64,000 nucleotides of DNA from Thermoanaerobaculia bacterium (lineage in GTDB: Bacteria > Acidobacteriota > Thermoanaerobaculia > Multivoradales > Multivoraceae), in the NCBI GenBank assembly GCA_963664405.1, contig OY761158.1, positions 2,208,001-2,272,000 on the forward strand. Reading direction: 5' to 3'. The translations under genes were made by a program, and so were the position numbers. Positions 6,786 through 57,343 of the stretch are shown here, piece after piece. Position 1 is the first letter of the stretch. The number at the start of each line of letters is the position of its first letter. The notes under the pieces were generated by a model. The model was given only the letters and a program-made list of their open reading frames with translations, did not search any database and was not told where the DNA came from.

Positions 6786-6913
6786 CCTCCGGAAATGATC
6801 GCTATCATTTCCTCCGGCTAGTTTTTGTTTGGCGCCGAGGACGGCGCACTCGGGCATTGCTTCCTATTCGCTCCGGGAAACGGCTCAGGACGAATACTCG
6901 GACACGCTCCTAG
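6782..6913 (+). repeat. Repeat family C copy 1 (stop-codon-anchored hairpin cassette)
   Basis: cTAGcctccggaaatgat-cgct-atcatttcctccggctag hairpin, T tract, ggcgccgaggacggcgcac, cttcctattcgct; TAG is the stop of 6150-6785. Confidence 0.85.
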
Positions 6914-6979
6914 CCTGGACTATTCATGAGGTCCGTAGCGAGGTGCCGCAGTAGGAGCTTCATGAATAATCCAGGCTAG
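6910..6979. repeat. 70-bp CTAG-bounded miniature inverted-repeat element
   Basis: ctagcctggactattcatga ... tcatgaataatccaggctag (20-bp IR, 1 mismatch). Confidence 0.75.
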
Positions 6980-14760: not shown

Positions 14761-14919
14761 GTAGTTTCGCGCTCTCATCTCGTAAATCCGGGCAGAGACT
14801 ATCCCATCCCGGGACCGGCCCCCACGCGACGGTTCCGGGTGTTCACGGTGCCACAGATCGGGGCGGGGCACCCCGCCGAGGCTCTCGGCGACGGCCAGGC
14901 CTGAAACCGCCGAAGAATC

Positions 14920-15028
14920 GGGCTGCGCCGTTGCCCGAAGCGTATAGGAAGCAACGCGCAAGTGCGCCGTCCTCGGCGCCAAAAAACAAGTAGCTTTCAG
15001 AAATGATATTCATCATTTCGAAAGCTAC
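14920..15028 (-). repeat. Repeat family C copy 2
   Basis: Minus strand gTAGctttcgaaatgat...atcatttctgaaagctac ttgtttttt ggcgccgaggacggcgcac; TAG is the stop of 15025-17268. Confidence 0.85.
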
Positions 15029-17268: not shown

Positions 17269-17461
17269 CCTGAATTCGAGCGAGAGACTATCCCATCCGC
17301 CAGAGCGCCGCCCCCTTTTGTGGATGCCGGGTGTTCAGGGTGCCCCAGATCGTCGCAGCGCAGGAGCGAGGCGACGCAGGCGTACACTCTGGGGCCAGGA
17401 GCGCGGCTGAAAATGAAGCAGCAGCGTCTCGCCGCGTCGAGGTTCTCTAAGACCGCCGAAA

Positions 17462-17572
17462 TCGGCCTGCGCCGTCTCCCGAAGCGAATAGGAAGCAACG
17501 CCCGAGTGCGCCGTCCTCGGCGCCAAGAACAAGTAGCTTTCGGAAATGATACTCATCATTTTCGAAAGCTAC
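17462..17572 (-). repeat. Repeat family C copy 3 (holds an empty IS110 target)
   Basis: Same hairpin and core; minus-strand cttcctattcgCTtcggg at 17478-17495; TAG is the stop of 17569-19815. Confidence 0.85.
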
Positions 17573-19815
17573 GGCTGCCACAGGTAGGTGTACTTGACGA
17601 TCAGCTCTCGTCGGAAGGTTTCACGCGCGGAAAAGGTGGGCGCATCCCAATTCTCGTTGTAGACGACGAAGAGATCGGCCCCTGGTTTGTAGATCCAATT
17701 CAGCCGCACATTGAGGCCGACGAGCTCGGCGGCGTCGTTGTACTGGGCGAAAGTGTTGAGGCGCAGATCGGGAGTGAAGGAGAGGTCGAGGCGTAGGCCG
17801 TAGACGTTGGTCCGAAAGTCGCCTTGGGGCAGCTTGACATCGTTGAAGTTCCACTCCAATTCGCTGCGCAGATGCTTCGACGCGCGAAAGACTGTGGTGA
17901 TGCGGGAGCTCTCCCGCTCACCGTCAAAGAAATCGCCGACATTGAACGAGCCCGAGAGCGAGAGGCGGCGCCCCCCGTTGGTGCCACCCCTCATGTACAC
18001 CGAGTCGAACTCGTAGAGCCCCGGCGGGATGACGATTCCTGGCCGGACCTCGAAGGGCTCGAAGAGCTGCTCGGTCTCGCGCGACCACGCGGCTCGAATG
18101 CGGTCGTCTCCCTTGGTGCGTATGCCGAGCGGATTCAATCTGAGTCTGCGGCTCTCGATCTGACCCGTGCTCTCGCGCTCGAAGTACTCGAGATCGGCAT
18201 CGAGAGTCCAACTACGAATGAAACCGCGATTCACCCGCGGCTCGAATCGGACGGTGGGCCTGTAATAGACGAAGTCGGTGCGCTGGAGAAACCCCATGCC
18301 CGGATCGAAGTTCTTTTGCGCCTGAATGATGTCGACACCGCCTCGCATGTTGCGGGCCGTGAATTGGAAGCCCGACCCGAACGAGCCCGAGTCTTCGCTC
18401 CCCTCGTCGCCTTCACTCTCAGCCCCGAAGAGGTAGAGGCTCGACGTCGTCGTCGGCTTGTAGTCGAGGTCGAGGCCAACCAGACGATTGAAGCCGGCGC
18501 CGCTCGGATCGCGCTCGGTGACGATCATACCAACGCTCGAGCGCTCACCGAGGTTGCGCTTGAGGCGGACGACTCCGAACTGCTCGTCGGGCAGAGGGGA
18601 GCGCCCTTCATCGTCTACCGCGTCGGTACTCACACCCAAAATGCCGATATTCCAGGCGCCGACGCGGCCCGTGAGCCGCCCGCCATAGTCGATGGGAACC
18701 TCCTGGCCCTGATCGAGACCGATACGACGCGAGAAGAATGCCTTCATCAGCGGCGGTCGGGTGCCGCCGCCCTGCGGAGAACCGAAGTCGAAGATCCCCG
18801 CGTTCTCGAGAAAGAACTCACGCTTCTCGGGAAAGAACAACGAGAAGCGGGTGATATTGACCTGCTGCTGGTCGACCTCGACCTGGGCGAAGTCGGTGTT
18901 GTAGGTGAGGTCGAGTACCAGGGAGCGGGTCACACCCCACTTGACGTCGAGGCCGGCATCGACCTCGTCGTCGTGTCGCGGCTCGCTCTGCGGCTCCTCG
19001 CCGACCAGTCCGACCACGAAGGGCTTGACCTCGAGCCGTCGGCCTGGCCGCACCTCGCCGATGCCGGTCAGATCACCTGCGAGCGAGACGAAATGAGCCC
19101 CATACAGCCGGGTCGAAATGCGAATGTAGAGCTCGCGCCCGATGGCAGCCCAGTTGCTCTCTTCATTGGTGCGCCGCACCACCCGCCGGATGTTGAGGCC
19201 CCAGGTATCGTCTCCGGGGTTGAAACGAAGGGTGGAAAAGGGAATCGCGACCTCGGCGAACCAGCCGCGGCTGTCTCTGCGCGTCGCGACCGCCCACACT
19301 CCGTCCCACTCGAGGTTGAAGCCCTTCCCCTCATCGGTGATCAAGGCATCGGTGCGAGCCCCGTTGGGGTTGATCTCGAACTGGAAGCTGTTGCGCTGGT
19401 CGTGGAAGGTATCGAGGACGATCGAGATCGCGTCGTCGCGGCGCCCCAGATCGGCATCGCGCTGCATCTCTTTGGCAACGATGGCGTCGGGCTGCGAGTC
19501 GTAGGCCCGGATGCCGAAGTACAAGGTGCTCGGCGTATAGAGAACCGAGAACTCGGTGGGCTCGGCGGCCGGCCGATTGTCTTCGGGCTCCCTGGCTGCG
19601 AAGCCACCGCCGACCTCCGCCTCGGCCCACGCCGCTTCGCTGAGCTCACCGTCGACAGAGATCGCCCGATCGATGGCGAGAGCCGCCAGGCTCGGGCGAG
19701 GGCTCGAGCTGTTCTGCGCCGACAACTGGACAGCGAACAAAGAGACCAGGGCGATCAACGAAACCGAGCAGCAAGAACGGGTGGACAACAACGTGAACCC
19801 TGAGCCCGAAACCAA
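17569..19815 (-). CDS. CBM9-like + DUF5916 outer-membrane protein, paralogue 3
   Basis: Same motifs; start codon uncertain. Confidence 0.85.
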   Translation of the reverse strand: MVSGSGFTLLSTRSCCSVSLIALVSLFAVQLSAQNSSSPRPSLAALAIDRAISVDGELSEAAWAEAEVGGGFAAREPEDNRPAAEPTEFSVLYTPSTLYFGIRAYDSQPDAIVAKEMQRDADLGRRDDAISIVLDTFHDQRNSFQFEINPNGARTDALITDEGKGFNLEWDGVWAVATRRDSRGWFAEVAIPFSTLRFNPGDDTWGLNIRRVVRRTNEESNWAAIGRELYIRISTRLYGAHFVSLAGDLTGIGEVRPGRRLEVKPFVVGLVGEEPQSEPRHDDEVDAGLDVKWGVTRSLVLDLTYNTDFAQVEVDQQQVNITRFSLFFPEKREFFLENAGIFDFGSPQGGGTRPPLMKAFFSRRIGLDQGQEVPIDYGGRLTGRVGAWNIGILGVSTDAVDDEGRSPLPDEQFGVVRLKRNLGERSSVGMIVTERDPSGAGFNRLVGLDLDYKPTTTSSLYLFGAESEGDEGSEDSGSFGSGFQFTARNMRGGVDIIQAQKNFDPGMGFLQRTDFVYYRPTVRFEPRVNRGFIRSWTLDADLEYFERESTGQIESRRLRLNPLGIRTKGDDRIRAAWSRETEQLFEPFEVRPGIVIPPGLYEFDSVYMRGGTNGGRRLSLSGSFNVGDFFDGERESSRITTVFRASKHLRSELEWNFNDVKLPQGDFRTNVYGLRLDLSFTPDLRLNTFAQYNDAAELVGLNVRLNWIYKPGADLFVVYNENWDAPTFSARETFRRELIVKYTYLWQP

Positions 19816-53190: not shown

Positions 53191-54840
53191 ATGATCAATC
53201 TCCGAGGATGTGCCGTTCCGCTCTTTGTGGCATCCAGCCTGGCTGCAACGAGCGCCCGAGGACAGGAGATCGACCTCCCGGGAGTCTTCTCCGAGATCAT
53301 CGACGTACGGGTGGTCAATGTGGAGGTCGTGGTCACCGACAAGGACGGAATCCGCATTCACGGGCTTGGGCCCGACGACTTTCGACTCCTCGTCGACGGC
53401 CGGGACCAGTCGATCGACTACTTCACAGAGATCCTTGGAGGTGAGATCGCCGAACCCGAGGACGGTGTCCGCACCCTGCAAGCAGCGCCGGCTCTCGAGC
53501 CGGAAGGCCCGAGCACGAGCTATCTCGTCTTCATCGATGACTACTTTTCGATCGCCCGAGATCGCAACCGGGTTCTAGACGCCTTCAGCGAGGATCTGGA
53601 GTTCCTCGGACCACGAGATCGCATGGCAGTGGTCGCCTTCGACGGCAAGCGCCTCGACATGATCACCAGCTGGACCACAAACCATCGCGTCGTTCAAACC
53701 GCCCTACGACAGGCAACGACGAGGAAGACATTCGGGCTGCAGAGACTTGGAGAGAGGCGGCAGAGCGATTTCGACCGTGCGGACTTCGCCCGCTTCGGAC
53801 GCGGTAGATCGTCCGGTCTGAACCCGATGGAACGCTACTACGCCACCAGGCTGGCAACGCAGGTGGAGCGCGCCATCAACGCCGCCATCGCCACTCTGCG
53901 CAGCTTCGCCTCTCCACCCGGGCGAAAAGTGATGCTGCTCTTGAGCGGCGGCTGGCCGGTCTCTCCGGCGGAGTACGCGGCGGCCTCGCCGGGCGGCAGT
54001 TTCGACGCCGCCTTCAGGGCCGCCCAGGAACAGGGCATCCCCGCCTATCACCGTCTGTTGAGCCCGCTAACCGACACCGCCAATCTGCTCGGCTACACGG
54101 TCTACCCTATCGACGTTCCCGGTATGACCGCGACGATCGACGTCAGTGCGTCACGGCGGGCGCCTACCATCGGCGGAGGCATCTCCTCCGATCGCGAATA
54201 CGGCATCCACGACACCCTCAGGATCATCGCCGAACAGACCGGCGGCCGACCGCTGATCAATGCTCAGCGGATCCACGCCATTGAGACGGTCGCTGACGAT
54301 CTCCGCTCGTACTACTGGCTCGGCTTCAGCCTCGACCGGCAGGCCAACGACAGCCGCCACACAGTCGAGGTCGAAGTGCTGCGACCCGGCCTCAGAACCC
54401 GCTCGCGCGGGGGCTTCGTCGATCTCTCCCGCAGCAGTGAAGTAACGATGATGGTCGAGAGCTCACTGCTCTTCGGTAATCCGCCATCGAACCGCCCCCT
54501 CGAGATCCGTTTCGGCAACGCGAAGAAGGTGAAAAGAGGCATCGTCGAAGTCCCCATCGAGGTCGGTTTCCCACTCGATGAGGTCACGATGCTTCCCTTC
54601 GACGGCGGTTTCGCCGGTCAGGCCGAGGTCCGTGTAACAGTGATGGATAAGGACGGCAACCGCTCCGATACGTCGGTTCACGGCATCGACATTCGAGGCG
54701 ACCACGCGCCGGAGCCCGGCGAGATGTTCTGGTGGGAGTCTGGCCTTCTACTGCGACGCCGCAAGCACGAGATCGTAGTCGCTGTCCACGACCCGCTGAG
54801 CGGCATCATCTTTTCCAGCACGGTGGAGATCACGCCTTAG
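53191..54840 (+). CDS. VWA-domain protein (Acidobacterial VWFA-related type)
   Basis: IDVRVVNVEVVVTDKDG, PGRKVMLLLSGG, AEQTGG, SYYWLGF. Confidence 0.85.
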   Translation: MINLRGCAVPLFVASSLAATSARGQEIDLPGVFSEIIDVRVVNVEVVVTDKDGIRIHGLGPDDFRLLVDGRDQSIDYFTEILGGEIAEPEDGVRTLQAAPALEPEGPSTSYLVFIDDYFSIARDRNRVLDAFSEDLEFLGPRDRMAVVAFDGKRLDMITSWTTNHRVVQTALRQATTRKTFGLQRLGERRQSDFDRADFARFGRGRSSGLNPMERYYATRLATQVERAINAAIATLRSFASPPGRKVMLLLSGGWPVSPAEYAAASPGGSFDAAFRAAQEQGIPAYHRLLSPLTDTANLLGYTVYPIDVPGMTATIDVSASRRAPTIGGGISSDREYGIHDTLRIIAEQTGGRPLINAQRIHAIETVADDLRSYYWLGFSLDRQANDSRHTVEVEVLRPGLRTRSRGGFVDLSRSSEVTMMVESSLLFGNPPSNRPLEIRFGNAKKVKRGIVEVPIEVGFPLDEVTMLPFDGGFAGQAEVRVTVMDKDGNRSDTSVHGIDIRGDHAPEPGEMFWWESGLLLRRRKHEIVVAVHDPLSGIIFSSTVEITP

Positions 54841-54926
54841 GCTCCAGAAATGATTGGTATCATTTCCTACGCCTAATTGCTCACGGCGCCGAGGACGGCG
54901 CACTCAGGCGTTGCTTCCTATTCGCT
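54837..54926 (+). repeat. Repeat family C copy 4, interrupted by IS110 (continues 56626-56644)
   Basis: tTAGgctccagaaatgat...atcatttcctacgcctaa, ggcgccgaggacggcgcac, cttcctattcgCT|IS|tcggg. Confidence 0.85.
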
Positions 54927-55029
54927 GATATGGAACGACCTTTGTCAAGCACCCAACGCCGCCTTTCTTGTCTTCTTGTAGACGGTGGAGGGCGCGGGGG
55001 AAGCGAGTGGGCGATGGGCGTGGACCCAA

Positions 55030-55200
55030 GAGGTCGCTTCGACGACGAGTCACGCTGATATCCGCGGATTACCCTTCCGGGCAGAGCCGAATGACCGTGT
55101 TCCGTCGTGAGGTCGTGCACTCTTCGTTCGCGAATCCGGGAAAGGACTCCCTGTCGCATAGCGAAAGCGCGAATCCTCGGATCGTGCCTCCCGGGGTCCA
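55030..55200 (-). ncRNA. Candidate bridge/seekRNA (boundaries approximate)
   Basis: Lies 3' of the transposase; minus strand carries ttcgCT, cgaAG (target halves) and atatcAG (donor half) in that order. Confidence 0.6.
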
Positions 55201-55370
55201 GCCCATCCACCCACTCGAGTCTCTGTTGTTTACCTGCCTTCTTGCCCTTCGCGAGTCGCCCCGAGAGGTCGGTTCGGGGTCCAGGCTGTCGGAGCCATCC
55301 CGAAGGGACTTGGCCTGGAGGCCGAAGCGGCCTCTCGACAGAATTGACCAGGGCAAGAAGCGAATGCATG

Positions 55371-56497
55371 TTAGTTCGTGCCGGTGCCTTCCTGCTGTCG
55401 AGGGTAGAGGTAAAGAACATCCACAGGAAGCCGACGAGCTCGCGAGCTATCGCAACGACAGCCTTGGGAGCCGGCTTGTTGGAGCCCAGTACGAAATGGA
55501 GATAGCGACGATGCAACCGAAGCTGCGCCTTGTCTGCCACAGTACAGACCTTCTGGGGTTGACCCTCGCGTCGTTTGCGTAGAGCACGACCCACAGCGGG
55601 CCGGTGTCGGTAGTGCCACGCGGCTTCGATCAAGATGCGACGCGCGTGAGCGTTGCCGGCCTTGGTGATCGGTCCCCGGTGCGTGCGATCCGCGCTCTCG
55701 TCGACCCGAGAGACCAAACCCAAGTACGCCATCAGCTTGCGAGGATCCGGAAACCGATCAAAGCCGTGTAGCTCGGTCACAAGGATCATCGCACTCACCG
55801 TGTCGATCCCCCGAAAACAGCGCAGCCATCCGACCGGTTCCCGATACGGCTCCTCAACGGAGATCTCCTCGATGCGCGTTTCCAAGCCTCGCATGCGCTG
55901 TTCCAAGAGCTCGATGGCCGACAGGTAGTCGTCGAAGACCGTCTGGCTCGCCTCGTGCTCGAATTCAAGAGAGCGCAGCCAAACTCGATGCCGCCGGGTC
56001 CAGTTGTTTCCCGACCGATAGACGAAACCCCGCCGCAACAGCATCTTCACCAGACGTTGACGGGCACGACGAAGATCCTCTACCGCATCCTCGCGACAGC
56101 GGCACAGATCCCGCACCGACTCCTCGCTCTCGCTCGGCGGATGCACCACCGTCAGCTGCCCACCGCGCTCCAAAGTCGCCAGCTTCCGGGCATCGCGGCG
56201 ATCCGTCTTGATCCGGTCTCCTGGCTTCACGGGTATCAACGACGGAGCGATCACCTCCGCCCGCACGCCTTCGGAAGAGAACTGACGCTGCAGCACATAC
56301 CCACACGGACCTGCCTCGTACACCACTCGCAGCTCCCCCTCCCCTTCACGCTTCAGGCGACGAGCCAGACGACGCACCGCTCGAGGCTCGTTCTTACAGC
56401 TCCACTCCAAAGGCTTCTCCACACCCGGCAGCAGAACGGCGATAGAAATCTCCTTCTTGTGTACGTCCAAACCCACGTATGTTGTAGCCTCACTCAT
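55371..56497 (-). CDS. IS110-family DEDD recombinase/transposase (probable 1-nt frameshift near 55422)
   Basis: YVGLDVHK, VYEAGPCG, IKTDRRDA, AYLGLV..DESA, ITKAGN, AIARELVGFLW; alternative frame gives DVLYLYPRQQEGTGTN-stop at 55371. Confidence 0.92.
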
Positions 56498-56695
56498 GAC
56501 CGGTTTCTCCCTTCCTTGCGGCTCTGGCGCGATTGCGACAACCCGCGATATCAGGTGGCTCTGCCACCCGGGTGATTAGATTCCCCGATTGTAGGACTCG
56601 AGGAACCGGTCGTTCCATATTGTCTTCGGGCGTCGTTGTCCTAGGCTCTGGTGTCGGGCTGAGCGGGTTCCAACCTAACGGCCTCGAGGAGAAAG

Positions 56696-57343
56696 ATGAC
56701 GAATCAAGCTCGGAAGCTCGTATGGCTTCGACCCCTGGTTGTCCTCACTGCGCTATCTGTTACGACAGCGGCTACCGCCGAGGAAGCTGAGAAGAGCGGC
56801 GGCGCGGGCCGCACGCACGACGAAGTGGCCCTGAGCTTCGAGGGTTACCGAGTCGTTGAGCTCAGTCCAAGAATCGTCGCCCGACTGCAAACGCTCGACG
56901 GCGAGATTCTGGAAGGGGCACCGGATCCCTACGGCTATCCATTGACTCTCAGGCAGGGCACCGCCCCCTACGACAACAGCACCCACACTCTGCTCGGCAA
57001 CCCCAAGGACAAAGAGTACCCGCACCCGATGCATCTTCATCTGGGGGCCCACACCGAAGCGGGCAAAGGTCATATCGGCCAGTTCGACGACCTTCCCGAC
57101 GACATGTTGGAGCTGTGGGAAATGCCGATAGACACCTTCTTCGGGCCAGCAGCCGTCTGCAACTTCGCGTTCTTGAAGCCGGTCGAGGGCACCTCGGCGA
57201 AGGGGAAGTCCGGGCTGCTGGGACAGGCCATTCTGCCCGAGCACTTCGCGCACGTTCGAGAGGGCGACATCGTTCTCCCGCGGATCAGAAGTGGGAGTTT
57301 GCGAGCGAACCGTGGTGTTGGTACGCAGCCAAACTGGGAATGA
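56696..57343 (+). pseudogene. Secreted cyclase/kynurenine-formamidase-like protein, truncated near 57280
   Basis: Signal peptide, HLGAHTE, FFGPAAV, VREGDIVL then loss of family pattern. Confidence 0.6.

What the first reader, a model, noticed from the sequence alone, without database searches (positions are those of the whole stretch)
54837..56644. IS110/IS1111 element inserted in the stop-codon repeat, with readable guide segments
Seen: removing 54927-56625 restores cttcctattcgCTtcggg, identical to the empty site in copy 3 (17478-17495, minus). The predicted circle junction is tattgtCTgatat. On the transposase strand the 3' non-coding region has ttcgCT (55165-55160, left target half), cgaAG (55126-55122, right target half on the other strand) and atatcAG (55061-55055, donor half), in the order expected. 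Known: IS110/IS1111 recombinases use bridge/seekRNAs around a CT core and often target REP-like repeats. Inference: an RNA-guided recombinase programmed against family C, giving a layered system of gene end, repeat and IS. The matches are short (5-7 nt) and the left donor guide is not clear.
Basis: partly seen in the sequence, partly recalled or inferred. Interest (0 to 1): 0.8.

Follow-up and report, generated by a model that had tools for sequence, protein, structure and literature searches.

The report
IS1111-type element with bridge RNA
A 1.7-kb jumping gene of the known IS110/IS1111 kind sits inside a short dispersed repeat and encodes its own guide RNA, whose loops match both the insertion site and the element's ends; it is an ordinary example of a known mechanism in a little-described branch.

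Summary

- **Element:** Window 54927-56625 (minus strand) is a 1699-bp IS1111-type member of the IS110 family. It has 13-bp subterminal inverted repeats, a DEDD/Tnp recombinase gene and a 444-nt downstream non-coding region.
- **Site:** It lies at a CT core inside a dispersed ~100-nt repeat. Removing it restores a site identical to 17478-17495.
- **RNA:** In 72 aligned relatives the non-coding region holds a conserved ~157-nt RNA (55188-55032) with two internal loops.
- **Guides:** Across 61 non-redundant relatives the loop letters track each element's own flanks; 0 of 10,000 permutations reached the observed match. The donor guide tracks the element end in 11 of 11 variant cases.
- **Fourth guide:** It is weak in this copy.
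- **Independent model:** A covariance model built without the window hits exactly this place at 138.9 bits.

Caveats:
- The copy is single and carries a 1-base frameshift 16 codons before the end of the recombinase gene.
- No expression data exist.
- The 9-nt guide match occurs 218 times in the genome, and only 25 of those are in the repeat. "Programmed against family C" is therefore unproven.

It is a new member of a known kind.

The parts
54838..54926 (+). Left part of the interrupted dispersed repeat ('family C'). It begins at the TAG stop (54838-54840) of the upstream 549-aa ORF. Its last bases ..attcg (left target) plus CT (54925-54926) are the core copy on this side.
   Evidence: BLAST of the repeat unit ends at genome position 2262926, which is window 54926.
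54927..56625 (-). The insertion sequence, 1699 bp. Its limits are ambiguous by the 2-base CT core.
   Evidence: The ends match the family-wide pattern ..AG|ACAAT|ATGGAA.. and ..TTCCAT|ATC|AG.. in transposase orientation.
54928..54940 (.). Subterminal inverted repeat at the end downstream of the recombinase gene (ggtcgttccatat on the transposase strand).
54943..54948 (-). TTGACA, a candidate -35 box. It would be joined, 17 nt away, to GACAAT at the other end once the element circularises (junction promoter).
   Evidence: TTGAC lies in the last 40 nt of this end in 96 of 109 relatives, 15-18 nt from GACxxT. No promoter-like site was found in the linear copy.
55032..55188 (-). Bridge RNA / seekRNA core, 157 nt. 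It has a target-binding internal loop followed by a donor-binding internal loop.
   Evidence: Alignment A2, consensus fold and pair counts. A model built without the window hits 55188-55032 at 138.9 bits, E 4e-32, over the full model.
55160..55165 (-). Left target guide UUCGCU, on the 5' side of the target loop. It has the same letters as + strand 54921-54926.
55121..55126 (-). Right target guide CGAAG plus one further A, on the 3' side of the target loop. It is complementary to + strand tCTtcg at 56623-56628.
55093..55096 (-). Left donor guide GGUC, on the 5' side of the donor loop. Three of its four letters fit tGTC at 56621-56624.
   Evidence: Column covariation with the element end. The same GUC is predicted to pair with GAC at 55050-55048 in the free RNA.
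55055..55061 (-). Right donor guide AUAUCAG, on the 3' side of the donor loop. It is complementary to CTgatat (core plus 54927-54931).
55371..56497 (-). Recombinase gene, 375 codons in intact variants. The window lacks one base between 55420 and 55421, just after codon W359, so the listed ORF reads on to 54881 (538 aa).
56513..56561 (+). Inverted partial copy of the donor-loop scaffold. It lies in the 5' leader of the recombinase gene, on the opposite strand.
   Evidence: Model hit at 17.6 bits, E 0.0069, model positions 97-151. The leader motif CGCGGGTT..hairpin..CAGAGCCGCA occurs in 90 of 113 relatives.
56608..56620 (.). Subterminal inverted repeat at the end upstream of the recombinase gene (atatggaacgacc on the transposase strand).
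56624..56644 (+). Second CT core copy (56624-56625), then the right target tcggg.. and the remainder of the interrupted repeat.

Best explanation
This is an IS1111-type insertion sequence of the IS110 family.

Shown here:
- The anatomy of the element and the restoration of the empty site.
- A conserved RNA structure in the downstream non-coding region.
- Covariation of its guides with flanks and element ends across relatives.

Inferred by homology with IS621 and ISEc11, not shown here:
- The recombinase acts together with a ~157-nt RNA transcribed from that region (55188-55032).
- With the window's + strand as top strand and CT as core, the first internal loop reads the target. [quoted passage not shown] - The second loop reads the joined ends of the circular form (tattgt-CT-gatat). 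[quoted passage not shown] GGUC pairs weakly with the bottom strand of ..gtC.
- Recombination at the CT core places the element between ..attcgCT and CTtcggg.. of a copy of a dispersed repeat.
- Circularisation would join TTGACA at one end to GACAAT at the other, 17 nt apart, making a promoter for the recombinase gene and the RNA.

Whether this particular copy still moves is open.
For: Protein:
- Pfam PF01548 (E 1.4e-15) and PF02371 (E 3.6e-17).
- NCBIfam NF033542, 'IS110 family RNA-guided transposase', 227 bits against a cut-off of 140.
- Distant matches to the solved ISCro4 and IS621 recombinases.
- D11, E61, D102 and S268 are invariant in 28 aligned homologues.

Ends:
- A 13-bp subterminal inverted repeat.
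- 113 of 161 elements (the window's plus 160 relatives) show the same repeat type and conserved terminal letters.

RNA:
- The 72-sequence alignment A2 supports 34 pairs in 8 helices.
- 90.8% of cells are paired, against 78.7% in shuffles and 30-49% when partners are slid.
- 23 of 34 pairs show changes on both sides. 0 of 500 shuffles reached any of the five measures.
- A model built from 59 relatives without the window hits 55188-55032 at 138.9 bits, and it is the only such hit in the 6.78-Mb genome.
- The same model finds the RNA downstream of the gene in 97 of 100 relatives. 47 of those were not used to build it, and the 3 misses have contigs that end too early.

Guides:
- In 61 non-redundant elements, each element's own flanks match its loop letters for a mean of 3.56 nt beyond the core on one side and 2.48 nt on the other. 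Foreign flanks match for 0.61 and 0.98 nt.
- 0 of 10,000 permutations reached the observed sum of 368; the highest permuted sum was 147. The window scores 4 and 3.
- Donor guide: element end ATC goes with AUAUC in 57 cases, AGC with AUAGC in 11 of 11, and ATT with AUAUC in 2 (mismatched).
- Weak donor guide: end ACC goes with GGUC in 30 of 31 cases, ACA with UGUC in 17 of 27, ACG with CGUC in 3 of 6, and ATA with AAUC in 3 of 3.

Other support:
- Five copies of a related element in genome G013 lie at otherwise unrelated loci that share (C)CT|AG|CTG(T), as its guides predict.
- Between distant relatives the RNA core is the best conserved DNA, at 74-80% identity against 65% for the gene.
Against: - No transcript, circle junction or empty allele at this locus was seen.
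- The element is single-copy, although at least 21 perfect sites exist in other repeat copies.
- The window's gene lacks one base after codon 359. That base is present in a second variant contig of runs X1 and X2 and in the contigs of X8 and X9. An exact-match contig of X1 confirms the window's own reading.
- Five of seven residues around the conserved serine differ from the consensus: VSRVDESA against VPSEHSSG.
- The guides fit the site at only 4 of 6 and 3 of 5 variable positions, and the left donor guide has a mismatch.
- Of 64 relatives with full flanks, 8 score 0 and 2 score -1 on the right-flank measure. Only 39 of 64 pass both modest thresholds.
Confidence: 0.9

Rival explanations
1. 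The copy is a dead relic. It is an IS1111-type element by descent, but the frameshift, the altered serine-loop residues and the mismatched donor guide have inactivated it. It stays where it once landed. This rivals activity, not identity.
For: - Single copy in 6.78 Mb despite many matching sites.
- A 1-base deletion after codon 359 removes the conserved ..AALYLYP tail.
- 5 of 7 residues around S268 are diverged.
- The left donor guide fits at 3 of 4 positions.
Against: - Both inverted repeats are perfect, 13 of 13.
- The RNA scores 138.9 bits, within the 128-168 range of most close relatives.
- The invariant acidic residues and the serine are kept.
- Copies about 99% identical occur in contigs of runs from four studies, three of the four runs holding an intact-frame form. 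In X9 the contig departs from the window 4 bases past the element's end, which hints at another location.
Confidence: 0.4
2. The dispersed repeat is the element's evolved, preferred harbour. This is the reader's 'layered system', as opposed to the repeat merely containing a common 9-nt motif.
For: - The insertion is in the repeat.
- The 9-mer is about 40 times denser in the repeat than in the genome. 25 of 218 sites lie in roughly 0.3% of the DNA.
- A second, different IS1111-like element in the same genome has all 3 of its copies at CGAAT(A/T)CTCGG|ACACGCTCCTAG, the tail of the long form of the repeat.
- In run X9 a 99% identical copy also abuts the 42-nt left part of the repeat.
Against: - 193 of 218 matching 9-mers lie outside the repeat. 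A random choice among sites would land in it with p of about 0.11.
- Only 21 of 108 repeat copies carry the exact site. The commonest variant (35 copies) has a mismatch next to the core.
- The related element in G013 uses five unrelated loci that share only the short motif.
- One insertion cannot show a preference.
Confidence: 0.3
3. The guide-like matches are chance, and target choice is made by the protein alone.
Against: - The same alignment columns follow the flanks in relatives; 0 of 10,000 permutations reached the observed match.
- The donor guide follows the T/G difference at the element end in 11 of 11 cases.
- The segments lie in internal loops of a structure supported by covariation.
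Confidence: 0.02

Closest known systems
IS621 (IS110 group) and its bridge RNA (Durrant et al. 2024, PMC11208160, passages read; Hiraizumi et al. 2026, PMC13626964, abstract and introduction read)
   Same: - A DEDD plus Tnp-domain recombinase and a CT core on both sides.
- An RNA with a target loop followed by a donor loop.
- In each loop the 5' side has the letters of the top strand left of the core, and the 3' side is complementary to the top strand right of the core.
- The core is included in the guides.
- The 3' target guide runs on for 1-2 letters that fit the joined product, like the published handshake guides.
- A promoter is predicted only across the joined ends.
   Different: - The RNA lies downstream of the gene and is transcribed towards the element's end, so relative to the gene the core reads AG.
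- The subterminal repeats are long (13 bp).
- The guides are shorter: 4-6 and 2-5 variable nt in the target loop, 5+2 and about 4 nt in the donor loop.
- The protein is only distantly related (E 3.3e-07).
- No assay exists for this clade.
IS1111-family elements with seekRNA: ISEc11, ISPa11, ISKpn4, ISPst6 (Siddiquee et al. 2024, PMC11187229, abstract and sections 6, 9, 13 read)
   Same: - Subterminal inverted repeats.
- A long non-coding region downstream of the gene.
- A short RNA from that region with one segment matching each strand of the target, overlapping at the site.
- Each element or group has its own target.
   Different: - That paper gives the recombinase length as 330-350 aa for the IS1111 family; here it is about 374 aa.
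- The RNA core conserved here is about 157-170 nt and includes a donor loop, whereas the co-purified seekRNAs were 82-96 nt.
- Placement in their tree was not tested here.
ISPpu9 of Pseudomonas putida (Pares-Guillen et al. 2025, PMC12288879, passages read)
   Same: - An IS110-family element inserted in repetitive extragenic palindromes.
- An AG dinucleotide at both ends when read in the direction of the gene.
- Extra RNA-related modules at both ends of the element: Asr9 antisense to the leader, and Ssr9 downstream.
   Different: - ISPpu9 is described there as IS110-group, with its bridge RNA upstream and no junction promoter.
- Its downstream Ssr9 is complementary to the antisense RNA. Here the leader carries an inverted copy of the downstream RNA's donor-loop scaffold.

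Membership tests
IS110 family (DEDD recombinase insertion sequences) | N-terminal DEDD/RuvC-like domain plus C-terminal Tnp domain | tested here: met
   PF01548 and PF02371 are both above their cut-offs. NF033542 scores 227 bits against a cut-off of 140.
IS110 family (DEDD recombinase insertion sequences) | Conserved acidic residues and the serine of the G--P----SG region | tested here: met
   D11, E61, D102 and S268 are invariant in 28 homologues including this one. Which of them are catalytic is recalled from the literature. Around the serine the window lineage reads GLVSRVDESA, so the P and G of the motif are not kept.
IS110 family (DEDD recombinase insertion sequences) | Site-specific insertion at a core dinucleotide shared by target and element, with no other duplication | tested here: met
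   CT is present on both sides. Excision in silico gives a string identical to the empty copy at 17478-17495.
IS1111 group | Subterminal inverted repeats of 7-17 bp | tested here: met
   A 13-bp perfect repeat lies 5 nt and 1 nt from the ends in gene orientation.
IS1111 group | The longer non-coding region, and the RNA, lie downstream of the recombinase gene | tested here: met
   There are 444 nt downstream against 128 nt upstream. The RNA is at 55188-55032.
IS1111 group | Recombinase falls in the IS1111 clade (length 330-350 aa in PMC11187229) | tested here: inconclusive
   The length is 375 aa, and 374 aa is typical of the 120 best homologues, which is outside the quoted range. No tree with ISfinder reference sequences could be built here.
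Bridge RNA / seekRNA | Structured RNA with internal loops, supported by covariation | tested here: met
   23 of 34 pairs have compensatory changes, and 0 of 500 shuffles are as high.
Bridge RNA / seekRNA | Loop letters covary with both strands of the target and with the element's ends | tested here: met
   0 of 10,000 permutations reach the observed match, and the donor guide follows the end in 11 of 11 variant cases.
Bridge RNA / seekRNA | RNA is made, binds the recombinase and is required for transposition | not testable with these tools
   This needs RNA sequencing, co-purification and a transposition assay.
Bridge RNA / seekRNA | Match to a curated RNA family | tested here: not met
   No Rfam 15 family matched at E up to 1 over 54500-57000. 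Whether Rfam holds any bridge RNA family was not checked.

The most novel reading that the evidence does not exclude
The element carries a second, inverted copy of the donor-loop scaffold in its other end. In the window it lies at 56513-56561 on the + strand, which is the recombinase gene's 5' leader read backwards, and includes the letters AUAUCAG. The motif is present in 90 of 113 relatives.

If that strand is transcribed, it would give a small antisense RNA. That RNA would look to the recombinase like half a bridge RNA, and it would also cover the ribosome-binding site. It could act as a decoy or a regulator of transposition. Alternatively, the sense leader could act as a structured autoregulatory site.

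Nothing like this turned up in my four literature searches.
Probability: 0.2. Interest if true: 0.6.

Novelty: new member of a known kind. Interest (0 to 1): 0.3.

Why it matters
As an element it is ordinary. IS110/IS1111 recombinases guided by bridge RNAs or seekRNAs, and their liking for short genomic repeats, have been in print since 2024 and 2006.

Its value is descriptive. The window's copy led to a large branch, mostly known from metagenomes, whose record titles name Acidobacteriota, Vicinamibacterales, Rokubacteria, Myxococcota, Gemmatimonadota and others. For this branch all four guides, a handshake-like extension, the junction promoter and the RNA fold can be read from sequence alone.

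Such natural variety, with short guides and the RNA at the other end, is raw material for people who engineer bridge recombinases. The inverted scaffold copy in the leader is the only feature a specialist might not expect.

Tried and rejected
Searches that found nothing or could not run:
- Rfam found nothing over the element or over an intact repeat copy.
- No RNA holder was listed among public runs. Contigs of four runs showed no circle junction and no joint skipping the element. Neither result says anything about expression or excision.
- No structure prediction or complex prediction was attempted, because nothing in the report depends on one.
- Supplementary files were not opened. Durrant et al.'s supplementary tables of predicted IS1111 bridge RNAs may already include this branch.

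Methods that failed:
- A first MAFFT alignment of 87 longer segments was too gappy for a consensus fold, at -3 kcal/mol. I trimmed it to the core.
- The single-sequence fold of the window's RNA pairs the two target guides with each other, because the site is nearly palindromic. The family alignment shows they are loop strands.
- A regular-expression parse of the two letters after the core in the 3' target guide was unreliable. The handshake-like extension rests on a few variant groups read by eye: AGAU, AGAA and AGUU elements.

Ideas considered and dropped:
- That GGUCAU pairs with the inverted repeat (ATGACC). It does not follow repeat variants.
- That the letters after AUAUCAG follow the flank. 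I saw no agreement by eye, and it was not tested formally.
- That a full 13-nt target fitting all loop positions exists in the genome. There are 0 exact and 12 one-mismatch sites, none in the repeat.
- That the leader pairs in trans with the bridge RNA. Leader and RNA are complementary over 8+8+8 nt in the window. However, two subgroups change one partner without the other. L020-L029 leaders have GTGG/CCAC while their RNAs keep GCGG/CCGC. L005-type RNAs have GUGUG/CACC while their leaders keep CGCGG/CCGCA. The leader motif therefore looks self-contained. Duplex energies were only mildly below shuffles, with a mean z of -2.25 and 37 of 72 below -2.
- Programmed frameshifting at the broken codon. 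This was set aside because other variants simply carry one more base.
Full report
**What is there.** The stretch 54927-56625 interrupts a copy of a short repeat that starts at the TAG stop of the upstream 549-aa ORF. The junctions read attcgCT|gatatgg and ccatattgtCT|tcggg. Removing the insert gives cttcctattcgCTtcggg, which is found intact at 17478-17495 (-) and with one mismatch at two more places. Shuffled windows gave a mean of 0.07 matches.

The minus strand carries an ORF with Pfam PF01548 and PF02371. It matches NCBIfam NF033542, 'IS110 family RNA-guided transposase', at 227 bits against a cut-off of 140, and is distantly similar to the solved ISCro4 and IS621 recombinases. A perfect 13-bp inverted repeat lies just inside both ends. 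The element is the only copy in the 6.78-Mb genome.

**The gene is slightly broken.** The listed ORF has 538 codons and runs out of the element, whereas the 120 best homologues are mostly about 374 aa. A 375-aa protein identical over the first 359 residues ends ..GFLW-DVLYLYPRQQEGTGTN, like its relatives. The window needs one more base between 55420 and 55421 to read that way.

Contigs of public runs show that extra base in a second variant in runs X1 and X2, and in X8 and X9. An exact-match contig of X1 reproduces the window's shorter reading. The correct-frame stop at 55371-55373 leaves a 444-nt downstream non-coding region. The invariant D11, E61, D102 and S268 are kept, but five of the seven residues around the serine differ from the consensus.

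**Relatives.** Scans of genome and metagenome collections gave 160 loci with recombinases 42-66% identical. Counting the window's own element, 113 of 161 have both inverted repeats on the locus. In gene orientation their ends read ..AG|AC(A/C)xT|ATGGA.. and ..TCCAT|A(T/G)C|AG...

**The RNA.** An internal TATC(A/G)G motif occurs in the downstream region of most relatives, and it anchors a well-conserved block.

- The 72-sequence alignment A2 folds into two internal loops closed by helices.
- With a hand-completed structure of 34 pairs, 90.8% of cells pair, against 78.7% in shuffles and 30-49% with slid partners.
- 23 pairs show changes on both sides, and 0 of 500 shuffles reach any measure.
- A covariance model built from 59 relatives without the window hits 55188-55032 over its full length at 138.9 bits, E 4e-32. 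That is the only such hit in the genome.
- The model finds the RNA downstream of the gene in 97 of 100 relatives. 47 of those were not used for the model, and the three misses have contigs that end within about 200 nt of the gene.
- Within the host's taxonomic family, the RNA core is the best-conserved DNA of the element, at 74-80% identity against 65% for the gene.

- *Left target guide.* The 5' strand of the first loop holds UUCGCU (55165-55160), the letters of the left target plus core.
- *Right target guide.* The 3' strand of the first loop holds CGAAG (55126-55122), the complement of core plus right target.
- *Right donor guide.* The 3' strand of the second loop holds AUAUCAG (55061-55055), the complement of CT plus gatat at the element's other end.
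- *Tracking the flanks.* For 61 non-redundant elements with at least 8 nt of flank on both sides, each element's own flanks match the first-loop strands for 3.56 and 2.48 nt beyond the core on average. Foreign flanks match for 0.61 and 0.98 nt. No permutation out of 10,000 comes near (observed 368, best permuted 147). The window's values are 4 and 3.
- *Elements that do not fit.* Of 64 elements with full flanks, 43 reach 4 or more on one side and 54 reach 2 or more on the other. 39 pass both modest thresholds, 8 score 0 and 2 score -1. Several of the misfits belong to a subgroup whose guide ends in A instead of U, or have one to three extra bases at the junction.
- *Donor guide and element end.* ATC goes with AUAUC 57 times, AGC with AUAGC 11 of 11 times, and ATT with AUAUC twice.
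Its first letter follows the fifth base of the element end: C with G in 30 of 31 cases, A with U in 17 of 27, and G with C in 3 of 6. Its second letter follows the fourth base in 3 of 3 ATA elements. The window has GGUC (55096-55093) against tGTC, one short. In the free RNA this GUC is predicted to pair with a conserved GAC.
- *Handshake-like extension.* The 3' target guide usually runs on with AC, the first letters of the adjoining element end. Small groups with other ends have matching letters (AGAU, AGAA, AGUU). This recalls the handshake guides of IS621 (PMC13626964, abstract and introduction read). The evidence here is thin.

**A within-genome test in a relative.** Genome G013, of the same taxonomic family, holds five copies of one related element. 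Their flanks are unrelated except for (C)CT|AG|CTG(T), which is what its loop letters predict.

**Junction promoter.** TTGACA lies just inside the downstream end (54948-54943). In a circle it would stand 17 nt from GACAAT at the other end. 96 of 109 relatives have TTGAC there, with 15-18 nt to GACxxT. The linear copy has no promoter-like site in the scan. This matches what is described for IS110-family circles (PMC12288879 and PMC13626964, passages read).

**Is it aimed at the repeat?** The repeat has 194 BLAST hits in the genome, some in tandem.

- 108 hits cover the site, and 21 of them carry the exact TTCGCTTCG.
- The commonest variant (35 copies) differs next to the core.
- Genome-wide the 9-mer occurs 218 times, 25 of them inside repeat copies.
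- One insertion therefore cannot show a preference.

Three things hint in favour. The 9-mer is about 40 times denser in the repeat. A 99% identical copy in run X9 also abuts the left part of the repeat while diverging 4 bases past the other end. A different IS1111-like element in this genome has all three of its copies at CGAAT(A/T)CTCGG|ACACGCTCCTAG, the tail of the long form of the repeat. IS110-family insertion into repetitive palindromes is itself a known habit (PMC12288879; also a reference listed in PMC11208160 that I did not read).

**An unexpected extra.** The same model gives a second, weak hit in the window on the + strand at 56513-56561 (17.6 bits, E 0.0069, model positions 97-151). 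This is the gene's 5' leader read backwards.

The leader motif CGCGGGTT(A/G)-hairpin-CAGAGCCGCA, 16-55 nt before the start codon, is present in 90 of 113 relatives. It is the reverse complement of the inner donor-loop scaffold. Its stem changes in a compensated way (CGTGG with CCACA) without a matching change in the downstream RNA. So it is a self-contained element rather than a pairing partner. Whether it works as an antisense RNA, as a structured leader, or is only a vestige of an inverted duplication is open.

**Verdict.** The element is a new member of a known kind. Its present activity is doubtful.

Noticed in passing
window 56513-56561 (+); relatives L003-L159 leaders: The 5' leader of the recombinase gene holds an inverted partial copy of the donor-loop scaffold. 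The RNA model detects it on the opposite strand (E 0.0069), and the motif is present in 90 of 113 relatives. Its stem covaries internally but not with the downstream RNA.
   Followed up: partly
L178, L179, L180 (G000:C1 3365830-3366816, 3696330-3697316, 3899506-3900492): A different IS1111-like element has three copies with inverted repeats GGACTCC/GGAGTCC and TTGACA near one end. All three are inserted at CGAAT(A/T)CTCGG|ACACGCTCCTAG, the tail of the long form of the same repeat. Two of the three have a full repeat copy beside them.
   Followed up: partly
whole genome G000; window 6790-6915, 14900-15025, 17440-17575, 54838-54926: The 'family C' repeat is a ~100-nt dispersed element with 194 BLAST hits. 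It is sometimes in tandem with about 128-nt spacing (for example 1964971-1965454 and 5314430-5314925). It starts with a palindrome that includes a stop codon. It matches no Rfam family.
   Followed up: partly
window 55420-55421: There is a one-base deletion in the recombinase gene relative to variants in four public runs. Runs X1 and X2 hold both the window's form and a variant about 5% diverged with the intact frame.
   Followed up: yes
window 55690-55715 (-), residues 262-269: The normally conserved VPSEHSSG around the serine reads VSRVDESA in this lineage. The serine itself is kept.
   Followed up: no
L006, L019, L101, L102, L104, L115, L116, L117, L125, L126, L139, L142: A dozen relatives from different records all sit in the same sequence, ..aacaccg(g/a)gg(a/t)taAG|..|AGctgcgaagctcca.., with guides to match. 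This suggests another conserved or repeated target.
   Followed up: no
L004, L005, L007, L012, L014, L021, L025, L034, L083, L084, L092, L121: Many relatives are inserted at ..CT-AG-CTAG.., a palindromic site rich in TAG stop triplets.
   Followed up: no
G000 genome-wide: There are seventeen matches to the IS110-family model, eleven above the cut-off, forming at least five different elements. This genome is rich in RNA-guided insertion sequences.
   Followed up: no
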